A stretch of 64,000 bases of DNA from an uncultured Clostridia bacterium (lineage in GTDB: Bacteria > Bacillota > Clostridia > TANB77 > CAG-508), in the NCBI GenBank assembly GCA_934149075.1, contig CAKPDR010000009.1, positions 1,565-65,564 of the forward strand. The letters are read 5' to 3'. Position numbers and translations under genes: made by a program. The notes under the pieces are model-generated. The model ran no database searches, was not told the DNA's origin, and saw nothing but the letters and a program-made list of their open reading frames with translations. This document shows, in pieces, positions 468 to 22,841 of the stretch (within the stretch, counting starts at the first letter, position 1; each line of letters opens with the position of its first letter).

Positions 468-527
468 GTAAGTGGTGTCCCCACTGGTAAATTTTTTTAC
501 CATTAATGAGTGTCCCTATTGGTAAAA
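468..527. repeat. Two units of the dispersed REP-like palindromic repeat (core GTGTCCCnAnTGGTAA / TTACCAnTnGGGACAC)
   Basis: Same motif is found at 7776-8052 and 17876-18013; it is intergenic, downstream of uvrC. Confidence 0.6.
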
Positions 528-2700: not shown

Positions 2701-2829
2701 TGTTTTATACAATTTATAAAAAATTTTTAAATCCCCCAAAAAACACTTGTAACTTTTTACATTTTGCTATAATATATTAAAGTAAATTGAAATATACTAA
2801 ATTCATAGAAAGGAGTATTATCTTTAAAT

Positions 2830-2990
2830 ATATTCAAGCGCCAGAACACTTTGATCTTTGTGTTGACGAGGTCTAGAGTTATCGATTTTTCGGCGGATGC
2901 TCTAGTGGATTGCTTAATCCATAGTATTAAACAAAAATTAGCAGTAATGCTATAACAGACATTAATACATAAGCAGTATATTTCAATTCC
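2830..2990 (+). ncRNA. glmS ribozyme: glmS ribozyme (GlcN6P-dependent self-cleaving riboswitch) in the glmS leader
   Basis: Hallmark cleavage-site/core sequence A|GCGCCAGAACU..UUGACGAGG..GUUAUCGAUUUUUCGGCGGAUGC, with cleavage predicted between A2837 and G2838, directly upstream of glmS. Confidence 0.85.
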
Positions 2991-3017: not shown

Positions 3018-4859
3018 ATGTGTGGAATTATTGGATATATAGGACATAAAAAAGCAAGTCCTATATTAATTAATGGTCTTTTAAGACTAGAATATAGAGG
3101 ATATGATTCAGCAGGAATTTCTACTGTTGAAAAAAATGGATTATCTATTATGAAAGACAAAGGAAGAGTTAAAAATCTATATAATTTAGATGGAATTGAT
3201 GATTTAACAGGAACTATTGGTATTGCTCATACAAGATGGGCAACACATGGAAAACCATCTAAAGAAAATTCTCATCCTCATTTAGATAATAGTAATAATT
3301 TTTCTGTTGTTCATAATGGAATTATTGAAAATTATAATGACCTAAGAAAATTTTTAATTGATAATGGCTATACTTTCCGTTCTCAAACAGATACAGAAGT
3401 TATACCAAATCTTATACATTATTATTATTCAAAAGATACAAAAAATGATGATTTAAAAGTTTTGCGTGCAGTTCAAAAAGCGTGTATGGATTTAAAAGGT
3501 AGTTTTGCTATTCAAGTGATTTCAAGCTTTATGCCTGATAATATGATTGTTATTAGAAAAGATAGCCCACTTGTTATTGGTAAGGGTGATGGAGAAAATT
3601 ATATTTCTTCTGATATTCCTGCAATCCTATCATTTACTAGAGATTTTTACCTTTTAAATGATTATGAATTTGCTGTTCTTTCTAGAGATACAGTTGATTT
3701 TTATGATATTAATTTAAATAAAATTGTTAAACCTATAAAAACTATTGATTGGAGTGCAAGTAGTGCTGATAAAAATGGTTATGAGGATTATATGTTAAAG
3801 GAAATTTATGAGCAACCTAACTCTGTTAGAGAAACAATAGGTTCTCGTCTACCTGAAAACGAACCTTGTAATTTTGATGATTTAAATTTTACTAAAGAAT
3901 TTTTATCAAGTATAAACAAAATGTATATTGTTGCATGTGGTACAGCAATGCACGCTGGACTTTCAGGTAAATCTGCAATTGAAAAACTTTGCAATATACC
4001 AGTTACTGTTGATATTGCATCTGAATTTAGATATAGAAACCCTATTATTGATAAAAATACTTTATGTATTTATATCTCTCAATCAGGAGAAACAGCGGAT
4101 ACTATTGCTGCATTGAAACTTGCAAAATCTAAAGGTGCTACAACTTTAGCTATTTCAAATGTTATTGGTAGTTCAATTACAAGAGAAGCTGATTATTGTA
4201 TTTATACTCATGCTGGTCCAGAAATTGCTGTTGCTTCAACTAAAGCATATACTGCTCAAGTTGTTTTACTTAATATTTTAGCTGTATACTTTGCAGAAAT
4301 TTTAGAAAGTACTTCAATTTTCGAATTAAAAGATATAAAGTCAGAAATTTCAGCTCTCCCTTCAAAAATTGAAATAGCACTAAAATCTGCTAATAGAATA
4401 GAAGATTTTGCAAAAAATATTTATCAAGAAAAAGATGTATTTTTCTTAGGTAGAGGTGTGGATTACAATACTGCTTTAGAAGGTTCTTTGAAATTAAAAG
4501 AAATTTCATATATTCATTCTGAAGCATATGCTGCTGGTGAATTAAAACATGGTCCAATTGCTTTAATTGAAAATGGTATTACTGTTATTAGTATTATAAC
4601 AGATAAAAACTTAGTTGAAAAAACTATTAGTAATATTCAAGAGGTTATTACCCGTGGTGCAAAAACTTTGGTTGTTACAAATCAAGAATTGCCAAGTAAT
4701 AATATCGATACAATTATTACTGTTCCTGATACTAATGTTTTACTATCACCTATCTTATCAATTGTTCCTTTACAATTACTTTCTTATTTTATTTCAAAAG
4801 AAAAAGGATTGGATGTTGATAAACCTAGAAATCTTGCAAAATCAGTTACAGTTGAATAA
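3018..4859 (+). CDS. glmS: Glutamine--fructose-6-phosphate aminotransferase
   Basis: 613 aa; N-terminal MCGIIGYIG (Cys2 Ntn amidotransferase), two SIS domains, C-terminal KSVTVE; RBS AAGGAGG. Confidence 0.97.
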   Translation: MCGIIGYIGHKKASPILINGLLRLEYRGYDSAGISTVEKNGLSIMKDKGRVKNLYNLDGIDDLTGTIGIAHTRWATHGKPSKENSHPHLDNSNNFSVVHNGIIENYNDLRKFLIDNGYTFRSQTDTEVIPNLIHYYYSKDTKNDDLKVLRAVQKACMDLKGSFAIQVISSFMPDNMIVIRKDSPLVIGKGDGENYISSDIPAILSFTRDFYLLNDYEFAVLSRDTVDFYDINLNKIVKPIKTIDWSASSADKNGYEDYMLKEIYEQPNSVRETIGSRLPENEPCNFDDLNFTKEFLSSINKMYIVACGTAMHAGLSGKSAIEKLCNIPVTVDIASEFRYRNPIIDKNTLCIYISQSGETADTIAALKLAKSKGATTLAISNVIGSSITREADYCIYTHAGPEIAVASTKAYTAQVVLLNILAVYFAEILESTSIFELKDIKSEISALPSKIEIALKSANRIEDFAKNIYQEKDVFFLGRGVDYNTALEGSLKLKEISYIHSEAYAAGELKHGPIALIENGITVISIITDKNLVEKTISNIQEVITRGAKTLVVTNQELPSNNIDTIITVPDTNVLLSPILSIVPLQLLSYFISKEKGLDVDKPRNLAKSVTVE

Positions 4860-7489: not shown

Positions 7490-7753
7490 CTATTCTCCTA
7501 AATTATTTTTAAAAGCTTTTAAAATTTCTTCCATAGCTTTATCTTCATCTTCTCCATCACATTCAATTTCAATTTCAGTATTTGTTTTTATTCCCAAAGA
7601 CATTATTCCTAAAATTGATTTTGCACTTACTGTTTTTCCATTTGCATTTATATTTATATTACAATTAAATGTACCTGCTAATTTTGCTAATTCTCCTGCT
7701 GGTCTTGCATGTAGACCTGTTTCATTTTTTAAAACTACTTTTTCTTTTTTCAT
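7490..7753 (-). CDS. ptsH: Phosphocarrier protein HPr; the real start is the internal ATG, because the ORF-track 5' extension is read from the repeat array
   Basis: 88 aa MKKEKVVLKNETGLHARPAG (His15) ... KSILGIMSLG (Ser46); RBS AAAGGAAG upstream of the internal ATG. Confidence 0.9.
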   Translation of the reverse strand: MKKEKVVLKNETGLHARPAGELAKLAGTFNCNININANGKTVSAKSILGIMSLGIKTNTEIEIECDGEDEDKAMEEILKAFKNNLGE

Positions 7754-7775
7754 TTTTATAACTTCCTTTCTTACC

Positions 7776-8052
7776 AATGTTACCAGTAGGGACACCCATA
7801 AGTGGTCAAAATCTTTACCAATGGGGACACCCATAAGTGGTCAAAATCTTTACCAGTAGGGACACTCATTAATGGTAAAAGTTTATTATTTAATAATGTT
7901 TAAATAATAAATAATGAATATTAATATTAAATACTCTAACTTTTATTATACCTTTTACCATTAATGAGTGTCCCTACTGGTAAAGATTTTGACCACTTAT
8001 GGGTGTCCCTACTGGTAAAGATTTTAACCACTTATGGGTGTCCCTACTGGTA
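7776..8052. repeat. REP-like palindromic repeat array: three ~35-bp units, a ~65-bp AT-rich centre, then three units in inverted orientation
   Basis: Unit is TACCAGTAGGGACACCCATAAGTGGTCAAAATCTT and variants; the whole array is a large inverted repeat between the fruA 3' end and the ptsH promoter. Confidence 0.75.
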
Positions 8053-8060
8053 ACTCCAGA

Positions 8061-9977
8061 TTATTTTTTTTCATATTCTGGTAAATTATTTTTTAACATT
8101 GCCATAACAGCCATTGAAACTAATGATCCAATAATTATTGATACTAAATACCATATTGGATGTCCAACTGTTGCAATTACGAATATTCCTCCATGAGGTG
8201 CCATTAATGTACAATTAAATACCATTGACAATGCTCCTGTTACTGCTGATCCTGCAACAAATGCTGGTATTGTTCTTAATGGGTCTGCTGATGCAAATGG
8301 AATTGCACCTTCTGATATAAATGATAACCCCATTATATAATTTACATATGCTGCTTGTTTGTCTTTTTTTGCTATTTTCTTTGGGAAGAATGTTGCTAAT
8401 AATGCTATTGCTAATGGTGGTACCATTCCTCCTGCCATAACTGCTGCCATAATTTCATATTGCCCAGACGCTAACATTCCTGTTCCAAATGTATATGCTG
8501 CTTTGTTTACTGGTCCACCTAAATCTATTGCCATCATTCCTCCTAGAATTGCTCCTAGTAATACTTTATTTGCTGTACTCATTGATGATAAGTAATTATT
8601 TATTGCTGTGTTTATTGCTCCTACATATGGATTTATTAATAACATAAATGCACCCATTAACATTATTCCAAATACAGGATATAAAAGAATTGTTTTTATT
8701 CCTTCTATACTTTCTGGTAAATAACTACATATCTTCTTTAGTAATAATACTATATAACCACCAACAAAACCTGCTATTAATGCTCCTAAAAATCCTGAAC
8801 TAACAAGAACTACTGTGCTATCCGTTAATGATGCAAATGTTGTTCCCTGTACTGCTAATATTCCTCCAACAAACCCTACTGCTAATCCTGGTCTATCTGC
8901 AATACTCATTGCGATATATCCAGCTAAGATGTATAGCATTACATTAAATGCTGCTCCTCCTACTGTTTTAAAGAATGCAGCTAATGGTGTATTCATGCCA
9001 AAGTTTGAAGGATTTATTGAATAATCATCAAATAAGAATGCTAATGCTATTAATATTCCTCCACCTACAACAAATGGTAACATATGTGTTACACCATTCA
9101 TCAAGTGTTTATATACTTGTGTTCCAAATCCTTCTTTTTCATTATCATCTTCTTGATTACTCTTATTTGAAGAATGATATGTTTTTGCTTCTGGTGATAA
9201 TACATGTTCAATTAATTCTTGTGGTTTATTTATTCCATCTGCAACTTTTGCTTTTACTAGTTTTTTTCCGTCAAACCTTGATAAATCTACCTTTGTGTCT
9301 GCTGCAATTATTACAGCCTTTGCATTTTTTATTTCTTCTTTTGTGAATTTATTTTTCACTCCAGAAGATCCATGTGTTTCTACTTTTACTTTATGTCCTA
9401 ATTGTGCTCCCATTTTTTCTAGTGCTTCTGCTGCCATATACGTATGTGCAATTCCTGTTGGACACGATGTTATTGCTAATATTTCATATCCATCACTTTC
9501 TTGTTTTGTTTCTTTTAATTTCATTCTTTCGGCTCTATCTATGCACAACATAAATTCTGCTGGCGTTTCTGCATTTAGTAATTCTTTTCTAAATTCTGTA
9601 TCCATTAATAATGTTGATAGTCTACTTAACACGTCTAGGTGTACATTGTCTTTTGTATTCGGTGCTGCAATTAAAAATATTAATTTTGCAGGTTGTCCAT
9701 CTAAAGAATCAAAATTTACTCCATTTGGTATTACCATTGCTGATAATCCCGGTTTTGAAACTGCATTTGTTTTTCCATGTGGTATTGCGATTCCTTCTCC
9801 AATTCCAGTTGTTCCTTCTTCTTCTCTTTCCTTTACTACTCTTTTGTATTCTTCCTTGTTGATAATATTTCCATTGTTTGCCATTAAGTCAACCATTTGG
9901 TTAATTACTTCTTCTTTGCTATGTGCTACACCATTTAATTTGATGGCACTTGTACTTAACAAATCTGTAATTTTCAT
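8061..9977 (-). CDS. fruA: PTS fructose-specific IIABC component
   Basis: 638 aa; N-terminal IIA(Fru)-type domain (GIAIPHGK), then a IIB domain (ITSCPTGIAHTYMAAE), then a polytopic IIC domain. Confidence 0.9.
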   Translation of the reverse strand: MKITDLLSTSAIKLNGVAHSKEEVINQMVDLMANNGNIINKEEYKRVVKEREEEGTTGIGEGIAIPHGKTNAVSKPGLSAMVIPNGVNFDSLDGQPAKLIFLIAAPNTKDNVHLDVLSRLSTLLMDTEFRKELLNAETPAEFMLCIDRAERMKLKETKQESDGYEILAITSCPTGIAHTYMAAEALEKMGAQLGHKVKVETHGSSGVKNKFTKEEIKNAKAVIIAADTKVDLSRFDGKKLVKAKVADGINKPQELIEHVLSPEAKTYHSSNKSNQEDDNEKEGFGTQVYKHLMNGVTHMLPFVVGGGILIALAFLFDDYSINPSNFGMNTPLAAFFKTVGGAAFNVMLYILAGYIAMSIADRPGLAVGFVGGILAVQGTTFASLTDSTVVLVSSGFLGALIAGFVGGYIVLLLKKICSYLPESIEGIKTILLYPVFGIMLMGAFMLLINPYVGAINTAINNYLSSMSTANKVLLGAILGGMMAIDLGGPVNKAAYTFGTGMLASGQYEIMAAVMAGGMVPPLAIALLATFFPKKIAKKDKQAAYVNYIMGLSFISEGAIPFASADPLRTIPAFVAGSAVTGALSMVFNCTLMAPHGGIFVIATVGHPIWYLVSIIIGSLVSMAVMAMLKNNLPEYEKK

Positions 9978-17862: not shown

Positions 17863-17875
17863 TTTTCTTCCTTTC

Positions 17876-18013
17876 TTACCAGTAGGGACACTCATTTCTG
17901 GTAATTTTTTTTACCAATAGGGACACCCTTTATATAATTTCATTAATTTTTTTCGCATAAGAGTGTCCCCTGTGGTAACTTTTTTTACCATTAATGGGTG
18001 TCCCCAATGGTAA
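17876..18013. repeat. Four units of the REP-like palindromic repeat in inverted pairs
   Basis: TTACCAGTAGGGACACTCAT..., ..TACCAATAGGGACACCC.., ..GAGTGTCCCCTGTGGTAA.., ..GGGTGTCCCCAATGGTAAA; lies between the polC stop and the DUF1294 gene start. Confidence 0.7.
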
Positions 18014-18014
18014 A

Positions 18015-21000
18015 TTATCCAAACAAACTCAATTGATTACTTTGACTCATTCCTTCCAAGCAACCGAATTGACGTAATAATTCTGTTACAGAATCACCTA
18101 TTTTTGCACGTATTTTCATATCATCAATTGACATGAATTTTTCTTCTTCTCTTGCTCTCATTATGCTTTCAGCCGCAACTGAACCTAATCCAGCTATACT
18201 ATTTAAAGGAGGACGAATACTATCTCCTTCTACTAAAAATTTTGTTGCATGTGACTTATATAAATCTATTGGTAAAAATCTAAATCCTCTTTCATACATT
18301 TCTAATACTATTTCCAAGTCATCATACATATCTTTGTCTTTTGGTGTTGCTGCATTTCCCATCATATCTATTTCTTTCATTTTATTTTTTACTTTTTCTT
18401 TTCCATTTATCATTGCTTCCGCGTCAAACGCTTTTGCTCTAATTGAATAATATGCTGCATAATATGCAAGTGGAATATGTACTTTGAACCATGCTATTCT
18501 GAAAGCATTTGTCACATATGCTGCTGCATGGGCCTTTGGAAACATGTATTTAATTTTTTCACATGATTTTACATACCAATCAGGTACTCCATGTTCTTCC
18601 ATTAATGGTATATATTCGTCTTTCCATTTTGGTTCTTTACCTTTTGCTACTTTTCCTTTACGTACCGCTTCCATTATTTTAAATGCTTTGTCTGGTGGTA
18701 ATCCTTTTTGCATTAGATATACCATTATATCGTCACGACAACATATTGCTTCTTTTAATGTTACTATTCCTTGTTCTATTAATGTTTGGGCATTTCCTAA
18801 CCATACATCTGTACCATGTGATAATCCTGATAAACGTATTAGTTCATCAAATGTGGTTGGATGTGTGTCCATAAGCATCCCTCTTGCAAATTTTGTTCCA
18901 TATTCAGGTATTCCAAATGTTCCAACTTCTGAATGTATTTGTTCTGGTGTTACTCCTAGGGCTGTTGTTGAATTGAATATTGACATTGTTTCTTTGTCGT
19001 CTAACGGAATTGCTGTTGGTGCTACTCCTGTTATGTCTTGTAACATACGAATTACTGTCGGATCGTCGTGTCCCAGTATGTCTAATTTTAGTAAGTTTCC
19101 GTCTATTGAGTGATAATCAAAGTGTGTTGTTATTATGTCTGAGTTTGGATCATCAGCGGGATGTTGTACTGGTGTAAATTCATATATTTCTCTTCCTTTT
19201 GGTACTACAATTATTCCGCCTGGATGTTGTCCTGTTGTTCTTTTTATTCCAGTACATCCTGCTGAAAGCCTTGTTATTTCTGCTTTATTTACTGGTATAT
19301 TTCTTTCTTCGTAATATTTTTTAACATAACCAAATGCTGTTTTATCTGCAACTGTACCTACTGTTCCTGCTTTAAATGTTGTTCCTTTTCCAAAGATTAC
19401 TTCTGTATATTTATGTGCTTTTGCTTGATATTCTCCTGAGAAGTTTAAGTCTATATCTGGTTCTTTATCTCCATTAAATCCCAAGAATGTTTCAAATGGT
19501 ATGTCCATTCCATCTTTTGCTAATTTTGCACCACATTTGGGGCAGTCTTTATCTGGTAAGTCAAATCCATTTCCTACTCCATAATCTTCAAATTCTGAAT
19601 ATTTGCATTTTGGACATCTATAATGTGGCTTTAATGAGTTTACTTCTGTTATACCTGTCATATATGCTACAAGTGACGAACCTACTGACCCTCTTGATCC
19701 TACTATATATCCATCTTCATTTGATTTCCATACTAATTTTTGTGCTATTATATACATTACTGAATATCCATTACTTATTATTGAATTTAACTCTTTGTCA
19801 AGTCTTGCTTGTACTATTTCTGGCAATGGATCTCCATATAATTCATGTGCCTTGTTATAAGCTATGTTTTTTATATCTTCTTCACATCCTGGTATATGTG
19901 GTGGACATTTTTCAGGTGATATTGGATCTATTCTATCACACATATCTGATATTTTATTTGTGTTTGTTACAACTACTTCATATGCTTTTTCTTCTCCTAA
20001 ATAGCTAAACTCTTGTAACATTTCTTCTGTTGTTCTTAAATATAATGGTGCTTGATTATCTGCATCTTTATATCCTTGACCTGCTTCTAATATACGTCTG
20101 TATATTTCATCTTGTGGATCCATAAAATGGACATCACATGTTGCTACAACTAGTTTGTTTAGTTTTTCTCCTAATTCTACTATTTTACGATTTATGTCTT
20201 TTAAATATTCTCTATCTGGTACTTTTCCATCTCTTACTAAAAAATCATTGTTTCCTATTGGTTGAATTTCTAGATAATCATAATCTCTTGCTATATTTTC
20301 TATTTCTTCATCTGATTTTCCAAGTTCTATTGCTTGATATAATTCTCCCGCCTCACATGCACTTCCTAATATTAAACCTTCTGAATATTTTTTGTATATA
20401 CTTTTTAATATACGTGGTTTTTTATAAAAATAATGTAAATGTGAAAGAGATACTAATTTATATAAATTTCTTAGTCCAATATAATTTTTTGCTAATATTA
20501 TTGCATGATATGTATTTAATTTTTTGTATTCTTCTTTCTTAGCATTTTCATCTCTTCCTATGGTGTCTATTTCTTCAACCTTTGTAACTCCTCTATCTTT
20601 TAATTTTTGTATCATTACATTAAATACTTTAACTGTTGTATCTACATCATCTAATGCTCTATGTGCTACTTCTACTACTATTCCTAATTCATCTGCAATT
20701 TTACCAAGTTTGTATTTTTTCATATTTGGAAATATATCCTTTGCAAGTGTTAATGTGTCTATTACTGTATAATCAAATTCATATCCTAATGCTTTTGCGT
20801 TTTGCTTTAAAAATCCAACATCAAATTTTGCATTATGTGCAACAATTATTGAATCTCCTAAAAATTCTAGTATTTTGGGAAATACTTTATCAATTGTTTC
20901 TGCATCTTTTACCATTTCATCTGTTATGTTTGTAACATCTACAACTCTTTGTGGAATTGGTTTCTCTGGATTTACAAAACAACTAAATTCATCTATTACC

Positions 21001-22841
21001 TCTCCATTTTGTACTTTCATTATTCCAACTTCTGTTATTTTTTCTGTTACTGCTGAAAACCCTGTTGTCTCTAAGTCTAATACACAATAGGTTGTATCTA
21101 ATGGTTGGCCTTTTGCATTTGTTACTGAATTTTCTTTGTCTGGTGCAAGATATGCTTCTACTCCATAAATTACTTTCATATCTTGGTTATCTCTTCCAAG
21201 TAAATGATATGCTTCTGGGAATGCTTGTACAACTCCATGGTCTGTTATTGCTATTGATTTCATTCCCCAGCTCATTGCTCTTTTTATTAAATCCTCTGCT
21301 GATGTCATTGCATCCATTTGACTCATTTTTGTATGCATATGTAATTCTACTCTTTTTACTTCTGCATGGTCTTCTCTTTTTGTCTTTGGTAATGGTTCTG
21401 ACACTACTATTGTATTTGCCATTACAGTTAACTCATTTGAAAAAGCATCCATTTGAGCTCTTCCTGCTAATTTTATCGCTTTCGTTCCTTTTAATCTTTT
21501 TATGATTTTTTTTGCACTATTTCCAGGTAAAAAAGCTTTACATGTCATAGTACTTGTTCCATCATATATGTCTATACTTAAAATTACCTTTCCTGATTTT
21601 GTTTCTTTATCTTCCATTGCTTGTATTTCACCATCTATACATACATTTCCTGTTTCTGGGTTAATATCTACTATTTTTACAAGTGGATCACTTATATTCA
21701 CTGATGAACCTAAAATTAATGGCGTACTGTCATCTTCTTCTGGAAGTGGTGGCATTCCTTCATCTGATATTTCAGCAATTATATTTGCCATTACAGTTAT
21801 ATCTCCTGCATAACTATCAAATCCAGCTTTACCTGTTGTCTTTATTGCCTTTGCTGATTTTATTTTTTCTAATATTTCATTTCCTTTTGCTCCGTCTTCT
21901 GCAAATGATTTACATGTAATTATTCCTGTACCATCATATATTTCGTATATTAACATTCCTTTTCCTGTTTTTGTTTCTCTACATTCACTGTTTACAATTC
22001 TTCCTTCTAGTGTTACTCTTCCAGAATTAGCATCTAATTCTTTTATCTTCATTTTCTTTTCCTTAGCTCTTGATGGTTTTCCAAATATGATATTTTCTGC
22101 TTGTGGTAATTCTTCCATTTCTGGCATATATCCTAGTTCTTCTTCTGGTGGAATAGCATAATCTGCATCATTATATGGTCCTTCTGGAAGTGGTGGAATA
22201 TCTCCTTGTATTTCTGGAGTAGTGTATTGTTCTTCTTGATGTGTTCTTATTGCAATTCCTCTCATTGCTTCATGTACTGCTTGTTCTTCAATCTTTTTTG
22301 TCTTTTCTTGAAATGCTTTTACTTCTTGCTCTTTTATTTTTTCTTCTATATTTACTTTATACTTTTTTCCAAATAAATTATATATTACATTTTCAAGTTC
22401 TCTATCCAATTTTCTTGCTTTTAGGAAATCCGCTCCTTTTATTTGCATATATACATTTACTTTGTTATCGGTTAATTCTACTTTACTTTTTAATAATAGC
22501 AATGGTCTCATTAACGGATATTTATGTGCCATATAGCATATTAAATTTTCCCATTCATCATCAATTCTTTTTATATATATTCCTTCTGGATATGTCATTA
22601 GCATATGTACTTGTTCAAACTGAAATCTTTCTCTTAAGAATTTTTCAAAATACCATATTTCTTTTATTTCTATATATTCCTTTGAAGCCATACCTAGTTC
22701 CAATGTGTTTATTCTTTTTATAAAATTCATTTTTGTTATTACTACATCTGCTATATTACTGTTTGTTTTATAATCACTGAATACATCTCCAATTTTCCTA
22801 CTTTTCTTTATTTCTTGTACTTCTGCCATTTGTTTTTTCAT
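18015..22841 (-). CDS. polC: DNA polymerase III PolC-type (Gram-positive replicase), 1608 aa with a tandemly duplicated OB-fold domain
   Basis: Collinear with B. subtilis PolC: PHP (VELHMHTKMSQMDA), DEDDh exonuclease (YCVLDLETTGFS..VAHNAKFDVGFL), PHP-C, Zn-finger (CPKCKYSEF..CPKCG), palm/fingers (GSRGSVGSS.., HPGGIIVVP, LDILGHDDPTVIRMLQD), C-terminal LSLFG. Confidence 0.95.
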   Translation of the reverse strand: MKKQMAEVQEIKKSRKIGDVFSDYKTNSNIADVVITKMNFIKRINTLELGMASKEYIEIKEIWYFEKFLRERFQFEQVHMLMTYPEGIYIKRIDDEWENLICYMAHKYPLMRPLLLLKSKVELTDNKVNVYMQIKGADFLKARKLDRELENVIYNLFGKKYKVNIEEKIKEQEVKAFQEKTKKIEEQAVHEAMRGIAIRTHQEEQYTTPEIQGDIPPLPEGPYNDADYAIPPEEELGYMPEMEELPQAENIIFGKPSRAKEKKMKIKELDANSGRVTLEGRIVNSECRETKTGKGMLIYEIYDGTGIITCKSFAEDGAKGNEILEKIKSAKAIKTTGKAGFDSYAGDITVMANIIAEISDEGMPPLPEEDDSTPLILGSSVNISDPLVKIVDINPETGNVCIDGEIQAMEDKETKSGKVILSIDIYDGTSTMTCKAFLPGNSAKKIIKRLKGTKAIKLAGRAQMDAFSNELTVMANTIVVSEPLPKTKREDHAEVKRVELHMHTKMSQMDAMTSAEDLIKRAMSWGMKSIAITDHGVVQAFPEAYHLLGRDNQDMKVIYGVEAYLAPDKENSVTNAKGQPLDTTYCVLDLETTGFSAVTEKITEVGIMKVQNGEVIDEFSCFVNPEKPIPQRVVDVTNITDEMVKDAETIDKVFPKILEFLGDSIIVAHNAKFDVGFLKQNAKALGYEFDYTVIDTLTLAKDIFPNMKKYKLGKIADELGIVVEVAHRALDDVDTTVKVFNVMIQKLKDRGVTKVEEIDTIGRDENAKKEEYKKLNTYHAIILAKNYIGLRNLYKLVSLSHLHYFYKKPRILKSIYKKYSEGLILGSACEAGELYQAIELGKSDEEIENIARDYDYLEIQPIGNNDFLVRDGKVPDREYLKDINRKIVELGEKLNKLVVATCDVHFMDPQDEIYRRILEAGQGYKDADNQAPLYLRTTEEMLQEFSYLGEEKAYEVVVTNTNKISDMCDRIDPISPEKCPPHIPGCEEDIKNIAYNKAHELYGDPLPEIVQARLDKELNSIISNGYSVMYIIAQKLVWKSNEDGYIVGSRGSVGSSLVAYMTGITEVNSLKPHYRCPKCKYSEFEDYGVGNGFDLPDKDCPKCGAKLAKDGMDIPFETFLGFNGDKEPDIDLNFSGEYQAKAHKYTEVIFGKGTTFKAGTVGTVADKTAFGYVKKYYEERNIPVNKAEITRLSAGCTGIKRTTGQHPGGIIVVPKGREIYEFTPVQHPADDPNSDIITTHFDYHSIDGNLLKLDILGHDDPTVIRMLQDITGVAPTAIPLDDKETMSIFNSTTALGVTPEQIHSEVGTFGIPEYGTKFARGMLMDTHPTTFDELIRLSGLSHGTDVWLGNAQTLIEQGIVTLKEAICCRDDIMVYLMQKGLPPDKAFKIMEAVRKGKVAKGKEPKWKDEYIPLMEEHGVPDWYVKSCEKIKYMFPKAHAAAYVTNAFRIAWFKVHIPLAYYAAYYSIRAKAFDAEAMINGKEKVKNKMKEIDMMGNAATPKDKDMYDDLEIVLEMYERGFRFLPIDLYKSHATKFLVEGDSIRPPLNSIAGLGSVAAESIMRAREEEKFMSIDDMKIRAKIGDSVTELLRQFGCLEGMSQSNQLSLFG

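What the first reader, a model, noticed from the sequence alone, without database searches (positions are those of the whole stretch)
7776..8052. Dispersed REP/BIME-like palindromic repeat family organised as inverted arrays
The core TTACCAnTnGGGACAC(C/T)CAT..TGGT(A/C)AA, with half-site GTGTCCCnAnTGGTAA, occurs at four intergenic loci: 468-527, 7776-7885, 7948-8052 and 17876-18013. Each unit is an imperfect hairpin of ~30 bp. At 7776-8052, three units, a 65-bp AT-rich centre and three inverted units form a ~280-bp super-palindrome sitting between the fruA 3' end and the ptsH start, so it overlaps the ptsHI promoter region. The repeats create spurious ORF extensions (MGVPIGKDFDHLWVSLLVT.., MSVPTGKKGRK..) that recur in the ORF track. 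It could be an RNA-stabilising or terminating element, a MITE, or a protein-binding site family.
Basis: seen in the sequence. Interest (0 to 1): 0.55.

Follow-up and report, generated by a model that had tools for sequence, protein, structure and literature searches.

The report
Transposase-linked foldback repeat family in Clostridia
The 276-bp palindrome between fruA and ptsH is one copy of a high-copy intergenic repeat family whose units also flank a REP-type tyrosine transposase (TIRYT/RAYT-like) gene in sister genomes, so it is a new variant of a known kind of bacterial "junk" repeat and not a ptsH-specific regulatory site.

Summary
The core GTGTCCCNNNTGGTAA occurs 12 times exactly in the window against 0.47 expected. 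The copies lie at three loci, not four. Site 7779-8054 has 3 units, a 70-bp centre with 8.6% GC, and 3 inverted units.

The family is genome-wide in two sister MAGs (90-95% identical to the window). They hold at least 229 cores in about 75 clusters, always with the TTACCA..GGGACAC arm on the left and the GTGTCCC..TGGTAA arm on the right.

In both MAGs the same units bracket, in inverted orientation, a single Y1 (HUH) transposase gene with a C-terminal wHTH. Its only solved relative is E. coli TnpA-REP. The core GGGGACAC fits the published GGGGWSAS motif of inverted repeats that flank TIRYT genes. More distant relatives carry intact orthologues at the same acpS-tatD-udg locus, flanked by co-varying repeats.

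Strains over 99% identical to the window carry 3+3 units, 2+1 units, or an older decayed array at fruA-ptsH.

The family is therefore a TIRYT/RAYT-associated REP-like family, arranged unusually as tandem direct units in foldback arms. Single units fold weakly. A role as the ptsH promoter is not supported. The transposase gene itself was not found in the window.

The parts
7779..7881 (.). Left arm of the long-type (foldback) element. Three direct 35-bp units read TTACCAnnnGGGACAC on the + strand (7780-7814, 7815-7849, 7850-7884).
7882..7951 (.). AT-rich centre, 70 bp with 8.6% GC. It is homologous to the centres of other long-type copies: 95% to L041 and 93% to L028, which lie at non-orthologous loci in the sister genomes.
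7952..8054 (.). Right arm. Three direct 35-bp units read GTGTCCCnnnTGGTAA on the + strand. It is 97% complementary to the left arm.
7945..7974 (-). Promoter-like match GGGACA-18 nt-TATAAT, formed by the innermost unit plus the edge of the centre and pointing towards ptsH. It is a consensus match only.
   Evidence: The count in the region is not above chance. Centre orientation is not consistent in other copies.
468..527 (.). Two-unit half-element (cores 475-490 and 510-525). The uvrC reading frame runs 23 nt into the outer unit and stops at 503-505, giving the tail ..NFTNRDTH*.
17876..17926 (.). Short-type arm of two units (TTACCA..GGGACAC on +). It abuts the Shine-Dalgarno sequence and start (17862) of the downstream small membrane-protein gene on the minus strand.
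17963..18013 (.). Short-type arm of two units (GTGTCCC..TGGTAA on +). It ends 1 nt from the polC stop codon (18015-18017).
8061..9977 (-). fruA (PTS fructose IIABC), the upstream flanking gene.
7490..7753 (-). ptsH (HPr), the downstream flanking gene. Its Shine-Dalgarno sequence GAAAGGAAG directly follows the leftover ATTGGTAA of an older unit.

Best explanation
The repeats are a REP-like, non-autonomous repeat family. It derives from, and is probably mobilised in trans by, a single-copy chromosomal TIRYT: a RAYT-like Y1/HUH tyrosine transposase with a C-terminal winged HTH. In sister genomes that gene is itself bracketed by the same units in inverted orientation.

The conserved ~20-bp core (A-n-G-R-GTGTCCC-Y-A-n-TGGTAA, which reads GGGGACAC on the other strand) is inferred to be the transposase recognition site.

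Two forms exist:
- Two-unit half-elements sit flush against stop codons and ribosome-binding sites. They are old and conserved at orthologous sites.
- Long foldback elements have 2-5 tandem units per arm around a ~70-bp AT-rich centre, and their two arms co-vary almost perfectly. This indicates that a single-strand foldback is the propagated or maintained form, as in REPINs.

Unit number changes in 35-bp steps by slippage or unequal recombination. The copy at 7779-8054 is a recent arrival that replaced an older decayed array between fruA and ptsH.

Shown here: the family structure, the link to the transposase gene, the co-variation of transposase and flanking repeat across relatives, and the strain polymorphism. 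Inferred: binding and cleavage by the TIRYT, the single-strand intermediate, and the mechanism of array growth.
For: Abundance and structure:
- The core has 12 exact copies against 0.47 expected.
- The genome scan returned 61 loci from just two sister MAGs and 15 single chance hits in unrelated phyla.
- 241 distinct cores were counted, always with the same arm polarity, in a few recurrent architectures.

Link to the transposase gene:
- The Y1 gene lies between '--' and '++' arms in both MAGs.
- It scores 40 bits against Pfam Y1_Tnp (cut-off 23). It scores 59.9 bits against NCBIfam REP_Tyr_transpos, against 18.7 for IS200. It has a C-terminal HTH_24 domain.
- The only PDB relative is TnpA-REP, 4ER8.
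- HUH and the catalytic Tyr are invariant in the alignment.
- The literature describes TIRYT genes flanked by inverted repeats with the motif GGGGWSAS, some dispersed as dimers or clusters (PMC3733652). It equates TIRYT with subclass 2.1, which is Y1 plus a C-terminal HTH (PMC6006769). GGGGACAC fits that motif.

Co-variation across relatives:
- Intact orthologues at the same acpS-tatD-[gene]-udg locus are flanked by a co-varying repeat, TTACCACGGGGACGGAGATAATGGTAA. A more distant homologue has its own perfect 47-nt inverted repeat.

Evidence for foldback and mobility:
- Long-type arms are 95-100% alike at variable positions, with element-specific variants. The between-element mean is 67%.
- Strains 99.3-99.9% identical in the flanks carry 3+3 units, 2+1 units or a decayed 89-bp array.
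- The closest centres (93-95%) sit at non-orthologous loci in the other species.
Against: - The transposase gene was not found in the 64-kb window, so the link rests on sister genomes that are 90-95% identical.
- In those genomes the gene carries a +1 frameshift. A third species has an internal deletion that removes the catalytic Tyr. The enzyme may therefore be crippled, which sits awkwardly with recent mobility. Against this, dN/dS of 0.10 for ORF1 and 0.42 for ORF2 argues that it is still expressed.
- No clean empty-site/filled-site pair with defined junctions was obtained. The fruA-ptsH event is a replacement, not a simple insertion, and could be gene conversion.
- Single units are poor hairpins, unlike classical REPs.
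- No biochemical evidence exists.
Confidence: 0.75

Rival explanations
1. Domesticated gene-boundary elements. The arms act at the RNA level or as protein-binding punctuation: 3'-end stabilisers or insulators right after stop codons, and 5' leaders right before ribosome-binding sites. The long palindrome would be an RNase III-type processing site that uncouples fruA from ptsHI. This rival is not exclusive of a transposase origin.
For: - The outer TTACCA end lies 0-30 nt from a stop codon in 49 cases. In 15 further cases with ORFs of at least 120 codons, the ORF ends 22-23 nt inside the unit. The other end sits 0-3 nt from the Shine-Dalgarno sequence.
- Sites A and C and several others are conserved at orthologous positions in three species.
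- Flanking genes are mostly tandem (56) or convergent (12), and rarely divergent (5).
- The whole element would fold as a 103-bp RNA stem, -208 kcal/mol with z = -25.6.
Against: - No terminator-like site lies in the element.
- Single units fold weakly.
- No covariation was found across the internal loop.
- Unit number and even presence differ between strains more than 99% identical, which argues against a tuned function at this locus.
- Flush positions can result from selection for compact spacers.
Confidence: 0.15
2. A classical MITE, that is, a deletion derivative of a DDE-transposase insertion sequence, moving by cut-and-paste with target-site duplications.
For: It has terminal inverted repeats, a small size of 130-340 bp, an AT-rich non-coding centre, multiple copies and an intergenic location.
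Against: - No target-site duplication is visible at the ends. The inverted symmetry simply fades into degenerate units.
- The only coding element bounded by the same termini is a Y1/HUH gene.
- There are no matches in the plasmid, phage or viral collections.
- Tandem sub-repeats of variable number are atypical of MITEs.
Confidence: 0.04
3. Operator arrays for a transcription factor that controls the fru/pts genes, a locus-specific regulatory site.
For: Iterated 16-20-bp sites lie in dyad arrangement directly upstream of ptsH. A promoter-like hexamer pair lies inside the element.
Against: - The same units occur at about 75 unrelated gene boundaries (uvrC, polC, tatD, infB and others).
- The array is absent or decayed at this very locus in strains more than 99% identical.
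Confidence: 0.02
4. Immobile relics. The family spread long ago, and all present variation is slippage, deletion and gene conversion among existing copies, with no current transposition.
For: - The transposase gene is frameshifted or deleted in all three species of the genus examined.
- Many sites are orthologous across species.
- Long elements collapse to 1+1 doublets at orthologous loci, as in L059 vs L077 and L009 vs L021.
- Unit-number changes come in exact 35-bp steps.
Against: - The long element at fruA-ptsH is present only in part of one species, while the decayed allele is shared with another species.
- The nearest relatives of its centre are at non-orthologous loci.
- ORF1 of the transposase is under purifying selection as strong as that on neighbouring housekeeping genes.
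Confidence: 0.2

Closest known systems
TIRtrons: TIRYT genes and their dispersed terminal-inverted-repeat families (Di Nocera et al. 2013, PMC3733652; subclass 2.1 of Quentin et al. 2018, PMC6006769)
   Same: - A Y1/HUH protein homologous to TnpA-REP but longer, with a C-terminal HTH.
- The gene is flanked by inverted repeats that carry GGGGWSAS (here GGGGACAC).
- Copies of the flanking repeat are dispersed in the genome as singles, dimers and clusters.
- The gene is single-copy at a fixed, vertically inherited locus.
   Different: - The host is an uncultured low-GC gut Clostridia lineage.
- The density is very high: 12 cores in 64 kb, and at least 146 cores in about 250 kb sampled from one sister genome.
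- Units are stacked as direct tandem repeats (35-bp and 21-22-bp periods) in each arm around a conserved AT-rich centre.
- The transposase gene carries a conserved +1 frameshift.
- Quentin et al. found no REP-like sequences next to subclass 2.1 genes.
REP/BIME elements with RAYT (E. coli TnpA-REP, PDB 4ER8) and REPINs of Pseudomonas (Nunvar 2010, PMC2817692; Bertels & Rainey 2011, PMC3337134)
   Same: - Short extragenic repeats at more than 100 copies per genome scale, mostly between tandem or convergent genes and just downstream of stops.
- A single-copy Y1 gene is bracketed by inverted copies.
- Inverted doublets have arms that co-vary, as REPINs do.
   Different: - No GTAG or CGTC tag at the unit end.
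- The unit is a weak hairpin.
- Units within an arm are direct tandem copies, not alternating as in BIMEs.
- The protein scores below the NCBIfam RAYT cut-off (59.9 against 80) and has an added HTH domain.
IS200/IS605 insertion sequences (IS608, ISDra2) and their palindrome-associated derivatives
   Same: Y1/HUH chemistry. Single-strand hairpin ends would be the expected substrate. The unit begins with TTAC, which from my own knowledge is the IS608 target tetranucleotide; this may be coincidence.
   Different: The protein fits IS200 poorly (18.7 bits). The gene is single-copy and syntenic, not multi-copy. The ends are true inverted repeats, not distinct left-end and right-end hairpins.
Eukaryotic foldback (FB) transposons (analogy from my own knowledge)
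   Same: Long inverted termini are built from variable numbers of short tandem sub-repeats around a central loop. Arm lengths are unequal and vary between copies.
   Different: An unrelated host domain and enzyme. This is an architectural analogy only.

Membership tests
TIRYT-associated repeat family (TIRtron) | A Y1 transposase with an HUH motif and a catalytic Tyr, closer to TnpA-REP than to IS200 | tested here: met
   - Pfam Y1_Tnp scores 40 bits (cut-off 23). REP_Tyr_transpos scores 59.9 bits against 18.7 for IS200.
- The only PDB hit is 4ER8.
- H60, H62 and Y120 are invariant.
- Found in the sister genomes (L042, L052), not in the window.
TIRYT-associated repeat family (TIRtron) | C-terminal HTH extension (subclass 2.1) | tested here: met
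   HTH_24 matches residues 217-251, with E = 6e-5 to 3e-4. The region is colinear with uninterrupted homologues of 238-298 aa (mostly ~250-260 aa). It requires a +1 frameshift in this genus.
TIRYT-associated repeat family (TIRtron) | Gene flanked by terminal inverted repeats containing GGGGWSAS | tested here: met
   TTACCAttGGGGACAC.. lies upstream and ..GTGTCCCCaaTGGTAA downstream in L042 and L052. The motif definition comes from PMC3733652 and PMC6006769.
TIRYT-associated repeat family (TIRtron) | Copies of the flanking repeat dispersed in the same genome | tested here: met
   61 loci and at least 229 cores in the two MAGs. 12 cores at 3 loci in the window.
TIRYT-associated repeat family (TIRtron) | The repeat is bound, cleaved or mobilised by the TIRYT | not testable with these tools
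   The only indirect evidence is that the flanking repeat co-varies with the protein across relatives.
Classical REP / BIME | A 20-40-nt imperfect palindrome that forms a stable stem-loop | tested here: inconclusive
   The frame TTACCA..TGGTAA plus GGG/CCC can pair, but the free energy is only -1.8 to -3.6 kcal/mol and z ranges from +0.35 to -1.8. No covariation was found across the internal loop.
Classical REP / BIME | A conserved GTAG (or CGTC) tag at one end of the palindrome | tested here: not met
   The position-by-position counts show no terminal tag. GTAG appears only when the variable triplet happens to be GTA, and it lies inside the unit.
Classical REP / BIME | In BIMEs, regularly spaced REPs in alternating orientation | tested here: not met
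   Units within each arm are direct repeats. Orientation changes only once, at the centre.
REPIN | Two inverted repeat units around a spacer, with the arms kept complementary | tested here: met
   Long-type elements have 95-100% arm identity at variable positions, against a 67% mean between elements. This is not true of the short-type '--++' pairs, which score 45-80%.
MITE of a DDE insertion sequence | Target-site duplication and a related autonomous IS that encodes a DDE transposase | tested here: not met
   No duplication at the ends or in the comparison of filled and older alleles. The only coding relative is the Y1 gene.
CRISPR array | Direct repeats separated by unique spacers of similar length | tested here: not met
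   Units are contiguous with a 35- or 21-bp period and have no unique spacers. The arrays are inverted.

The most novel reading that the evidence does not exclude
The family may be more than selfish DNA. Under this reading the half-elements were recruited as gene-boundary punctuation, set flush against stop codons, where they even supply the last 7 codons (-FTxGDTH*) of about a dozen housekeeping genes, and against Shine-Dalgarno sequences. The resident TIRYT would be a domesticated enzyme whose full-length Y1+HTH form is made only through a conserved hungry-codon +1 frameshift of the Ty3 type (GCU-CGG-A). The long copies would be a bacterial counterpart of foldback transposons, propagating as single-strand foldbacks.
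Probability: 0.15. Interest if true: 0.7.

Novelty: new variant of a known kind. Interest (0 to 1): 0.4.

Why it matters
- It links a Y1+HTH (subclass 2.1, TIRYT) transposase to a very abundant, clearly structured repeat family in a gut Firmicute. That subclass was reported to have no REP-like partners, so the case is a natural system for asking what TIRYTs do.
- Natural alleles at one locus (3+3 units, 2+1 units, decayed array) exist in strains more than 99% identical. The transposase gene also shows a graded series across relatives: intact, frameshifted, deleted. Together these make activity, array growth and decay directly comparable in metagenomes.
- For annotation, it explains the recurrent spurious ORF starts and the shared C-terminal tails.
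- It warns against reading the fruA-ptsH palindrome as a ptsHI regulatory site.

Tried and rejected
- **Known RNA family:** Rfam at gathering thresholds finds nothing at the repeats. The permissive search gives only sub-threshold plant miRNA-precursor hairpins and BsrG, which are long-hairpin artefacts.
- **Phage or plasmid origin:** 0 hits in viral contigs, plasmids and phages.
- **Unit as a stable hairpin:** folding is not better than shuffles.
- **Covariation between the two sides of the internal loop:** mutual information appears only between neighbouring positions, not across the loop.
- **Centre as an outward promoter for the downstream gene:** there is one good hexamer pair in the window, but no enrichment. 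By my own reading, the centre points with the genes in about 2 copies and against them in about 6.
- **Intrinsic terminator:** none in the element.
- **Target-site duplication:** none seen; the symmetry fades into degenerate partial units.
- **Transposase gene in the window:** no significant tblastn hit.
- **Orthology among long-type copies fetched from the two MAGs:** a blast of flanks found none. By eye, two long copies in one MAG correspond to collapsed 1+1 doublets in the other.
- **Pseudogene status of the frameshifted gene:** not supported for ORF1 (dN/dS 0.10) and equivocal for ORF2 (0.42).

Full report
**The observation.**
The sequence is as described. The core GTGTCCCNNNTGGTAA has 12 exact matches in the window (plus one 2-mismatch match, probably chance). 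Dinucleotide-preserving shuffles give a mean of 0.47 and a largest value of 3.

At the reported site two 103-nt arms (7779-7881 and 7952-8054) are 97% complementary. Each consists of three direct 35-bp units. They are separated by 70 nt with 8.6% GC.

The other copies are a two-unit block at 468-527 and a 2+2 block at 17876-18013. A profile HMM built from 140 units of related genomes finds these 12 units in the 64 kb and nothing else. There are therefore three loci, not four.

**Genes around the repeats.**
All the relevant genes are on the minus strand. The order is fruK-fruA (IIABC, stop at 8061), then the repeat, then ptsH (start at 7753) and ptsI.
- uvrC ends inside the block at 468-527, with its stop at 503-505.
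- The polC stop (18015) lies 1 nt from the block at 17876-18013.
- The other end of that block touches the ribosome-binding site of a small membrane-protein gene.

**A genome-wide family.**
Of these, 61 come from two MAGs of uncultured Clostridia from human gut (CAKPGU01 and CAKPLT01). The other 15 are single hits in unrelated phyla, which is what chance gives.

The two MAGs are 90-95% identical to the window over syntenic segments of 5-8 kb. They are sister species of the window's organism.

In the fetched DNA I counted 241 distinct cores, 146 and 83 of them in the two MAGs. They form about 75-80 clusters.
- The polarity is invariant. The TTACCA..GGGACAC arm lies on the left and the GTGTCCC..TGGTAA arm on the right, so the TTACCA/TGGTAA ends face outwards.

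**Recurring architectures**.
- Two-unit half-elements (an outer full unit plus an inner half unit) stand alone.
- Short '--++' pairs have 42-54 bp between the inner cores.
- Long elements have 2-5 units per arm, with a period of 35 or 21-22 bp, around a ~70-bp AT-rich centre that is homologous between copies.

The window's fruA-ptsH copy is of the long type.

**The transposase link.**
In both MAGs a gene lies between a '--' arm and a '++' arm, between tatD and udg.

Reconstructed across a +1 frameshift, it is a 253-aa protein.
- It matches Pfam Y1_Tnp at 40 bits (cut-off 23).
- It matches NCBIfam REP-associated tyrosine transposase at 59.9 bits. This is below that model's cut-off of 80 but far above the IS200 model at 18.7.
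- It carries a C-terminal winged HTH.
- Its only relative among solved structures is E. coli TnpA-REP, 4ER8.

It aligns end to end with 238-298-aa (mostly ~250-260-aa) uninterrupted homologues. HUH (H60, H62) and the catalytic Tyr (Y120) are invariant in that alignment.

The literature describes exactly this class. Di Nocera et al. 2013 named RAYT-like genes flanked by terminal inverted repeats 'TIRYT'. Many of those repeats share the motif GGGGWSAS, and some are dispersed as dimers or clusters (PMC3733652). Quentin et al. 2018 equate TIRYTs with their subclass 2.1, which is Y1 plus a C-terminal HTH. They report finding no REP-like sequences next to those genes (PMC6006769). The core here, GGGGACAC, fits GGGGWSAS.

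**Co-variation of the gene and its flanking repeat.**
The closest intact homologues (53-54% identity) sit at the same acpS-tatD-[gene]-udg locus in more distant relatives. They are flanked by a related but distinct perfect inverted repeat, TTACCACGGGGACGGAGATAATGGTAA. In one of these relatives a further inverted doublet lies nearby.

A homologue at 41% identity, at another locus, has its own perfect 47-nt inverted repeat with GGGGACGTGTC and GGGACACACC.

The gene is thus vertically inherited at a fixed locus and its flanking repeat changes with it. This is the best available indirect evidence for a functional link.

**Evidence for turnover.**
Contigs that encode the identical HPr show several alleles of the fruA-ptsH spacer. 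There are 3+3 units (307 bp), 2+1 units with the same centre (202 bp), and a 114-bp spacer made of three decayed units with no centre.
- The decayed allele lies in flanks 99.3-99.9% identical to the window, and it is the allele of the sister species.
- The long element is therefore derived and recent.
- It arrived as a replacement that left the ATTGGTAA of the old terminal unit next to the ptsH ribosome-binding site, not as a clean insertion.
- Its centre is 95% and 93% identical to copies that lie at non-orthologous loci in the two sister genomes.
- Conversely, two long elements in one MAG correspond to collapsed 1+1 doublets at the orthologous loci in the other. One of these doublets still holds the first ~10 nt of the centre.
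- At the polC site the three genomes differ by exactly one unit, or by decay of a unit.

**Evidence for a foldback.**
In long elements the two arms are 95-100% identical at the variable positions and carry element-specific variants. Arms from different elements average 67%. In short '--++' pairs the arms are no more alike than random pairs, at 45-80%.

Long elements therefore behave as true palindromic units whose complementarity is maintained or generated, as in REPINs. Short pairs are two independent half-elements that meet in one spacer.

Single units, by contrast, fold poorly, and I found no covariation across the internal loop.

**Position relative to genes.**
Flanking genes are tandem in 56 clusters, convergent in 12 and divergent in 5.
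- The outer TTACCA end lies 0-30 nt after a stop codon in 49 cases.
- In 15 further cases with ORFs of at least 120 codons (about 11 distinct genes, including uvrC, tatD, acpS and mnmG), the reading frame runs 22-23 nt into the unit. It ends at the TAA of CATTAATGG, giving a shared tail -FTxGDTH*.
- The opposite end is typically 0-3 nt from the Shine-Dalgarno sequence.

I cannot tell whether this reflects a target preference, selection for compact spacers, or recruitment of the arms for a function at the RNA level.

**Readings that did not hold up.**
- One promoter-like pair, GGGACA-18-TATAAT, faces ptsH. However, promoter-like matches in the region are at chance level, and the centre lies in either orientation relative to genes elsewhere.
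- No terminator-like site lies in the element.
- Rfam, plasmid, phage and viral searches gave nothing meaningful.
- No target-site duplication is visible.

**State of the transposase gene.**
In both sister MAGs an extra C (AAA GCT C GGA, where homologues read NPVKAGIV) splits the gene. A third species has an internal deletion that removes the catalytic Tyr.

Between the two MAGs, ORF1 has dN/dS of 0.10, comparable with tatD (0.14) and udg (0.07). ORF2 has 0.42 and has stayed open in both.

The codon at the shift, CGG, is rare: 0.65 per 1000 in the window's long ORFs. A programmed +1 shift is possible but unproven.

The gene is not in the window, and I could not fetch the rest of the window's genome.

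**Verdict.**
The finding is real and it is a family. The precise home is the TIRYT/TIRtron class, not classical GTAG REPs or BIMEs.

It is a new variant of a known kind for four reasons:
- the host is a Firmicute;
- the copy density is very high;
- tandem direct units are stacked in foldback arms around a conserved AT-rich centre;
- the frameshifted transposase gene sits at a conserved locus.

Mobilisation by the TIRYT, the single-strand foldback intermediate and the mode of array growth are inferences.

Noticed in passing
L042 1683-2445 and L052 6233-6995 (sister genomes; not in the window): The TIRYT gene needs a +1 frameshift at a conserved extra C (AAA GCT C GGA). ORF1 has dN/dS 0.10, and ORF2 has 0.42 and is still open in both species. 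The shift codon CGG is rare (0.65 per 1000). This could be a hungry-codon programmed +1 site or an old lesion.
   Followed up: partly
window 503-525 (uvrC 3' end); also L042 574 and 1459, L052 759, 5129 and 5998, L068 2806, L048, L050, L014 and others: 15 ORFs of at least 120 codons (about 11 distinct genes) lack their own stop. They read 22-23 nt into the outer repeat unit, always in the same frame, and all end in -FTxGDTH*.
   Followed up: partly
window 7754-7779 and 17863-17876; many loci: The TGGTAA end of an arm is usually 0-3 nt from the Shine-Dalgarno sequence of the next gene (TGGTAA-aAGGAG/GAAAGGAAG). The arms thus bracket whole intergenic spacers from the stop codon to the ribosome-binding site.
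   Followed up: partly
L085 1606-2082: A third species of the genus has an in-frame internal deletion in the TIRYT gene. It removes the catalytic-Tyr region but keeps the N-terminal part and the HTH. The flanking repeat units are still present.
   Followed up: partly
sister genomes: One MAG (CAKPGU) is rich in long multi-unit foldbacks. The other (CAKPLT) has mostly 1+1 doublets with 48-53 bp between cores, at least two of them at loci orthologous to long elements in the first. The cause of this species difference is unknown.
   Followed up: partly
window 44719-45028 (-): Group II intron RNA domains (RF02001 at 150 bits, RF01998 at 62 bits). A mobile intron is probably present here.
   Followed up: no
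window 2826-2978 (+): A glmS ribozyme lies upstream of glmS (3018-4859).
   Followed up: no
window 18015-22841 (-): polC is 1608 aa, and the matches to the PolC models begin only at residues 377-392. The N-terminal extension of about 375 residues was not examined.
   Followed up: no
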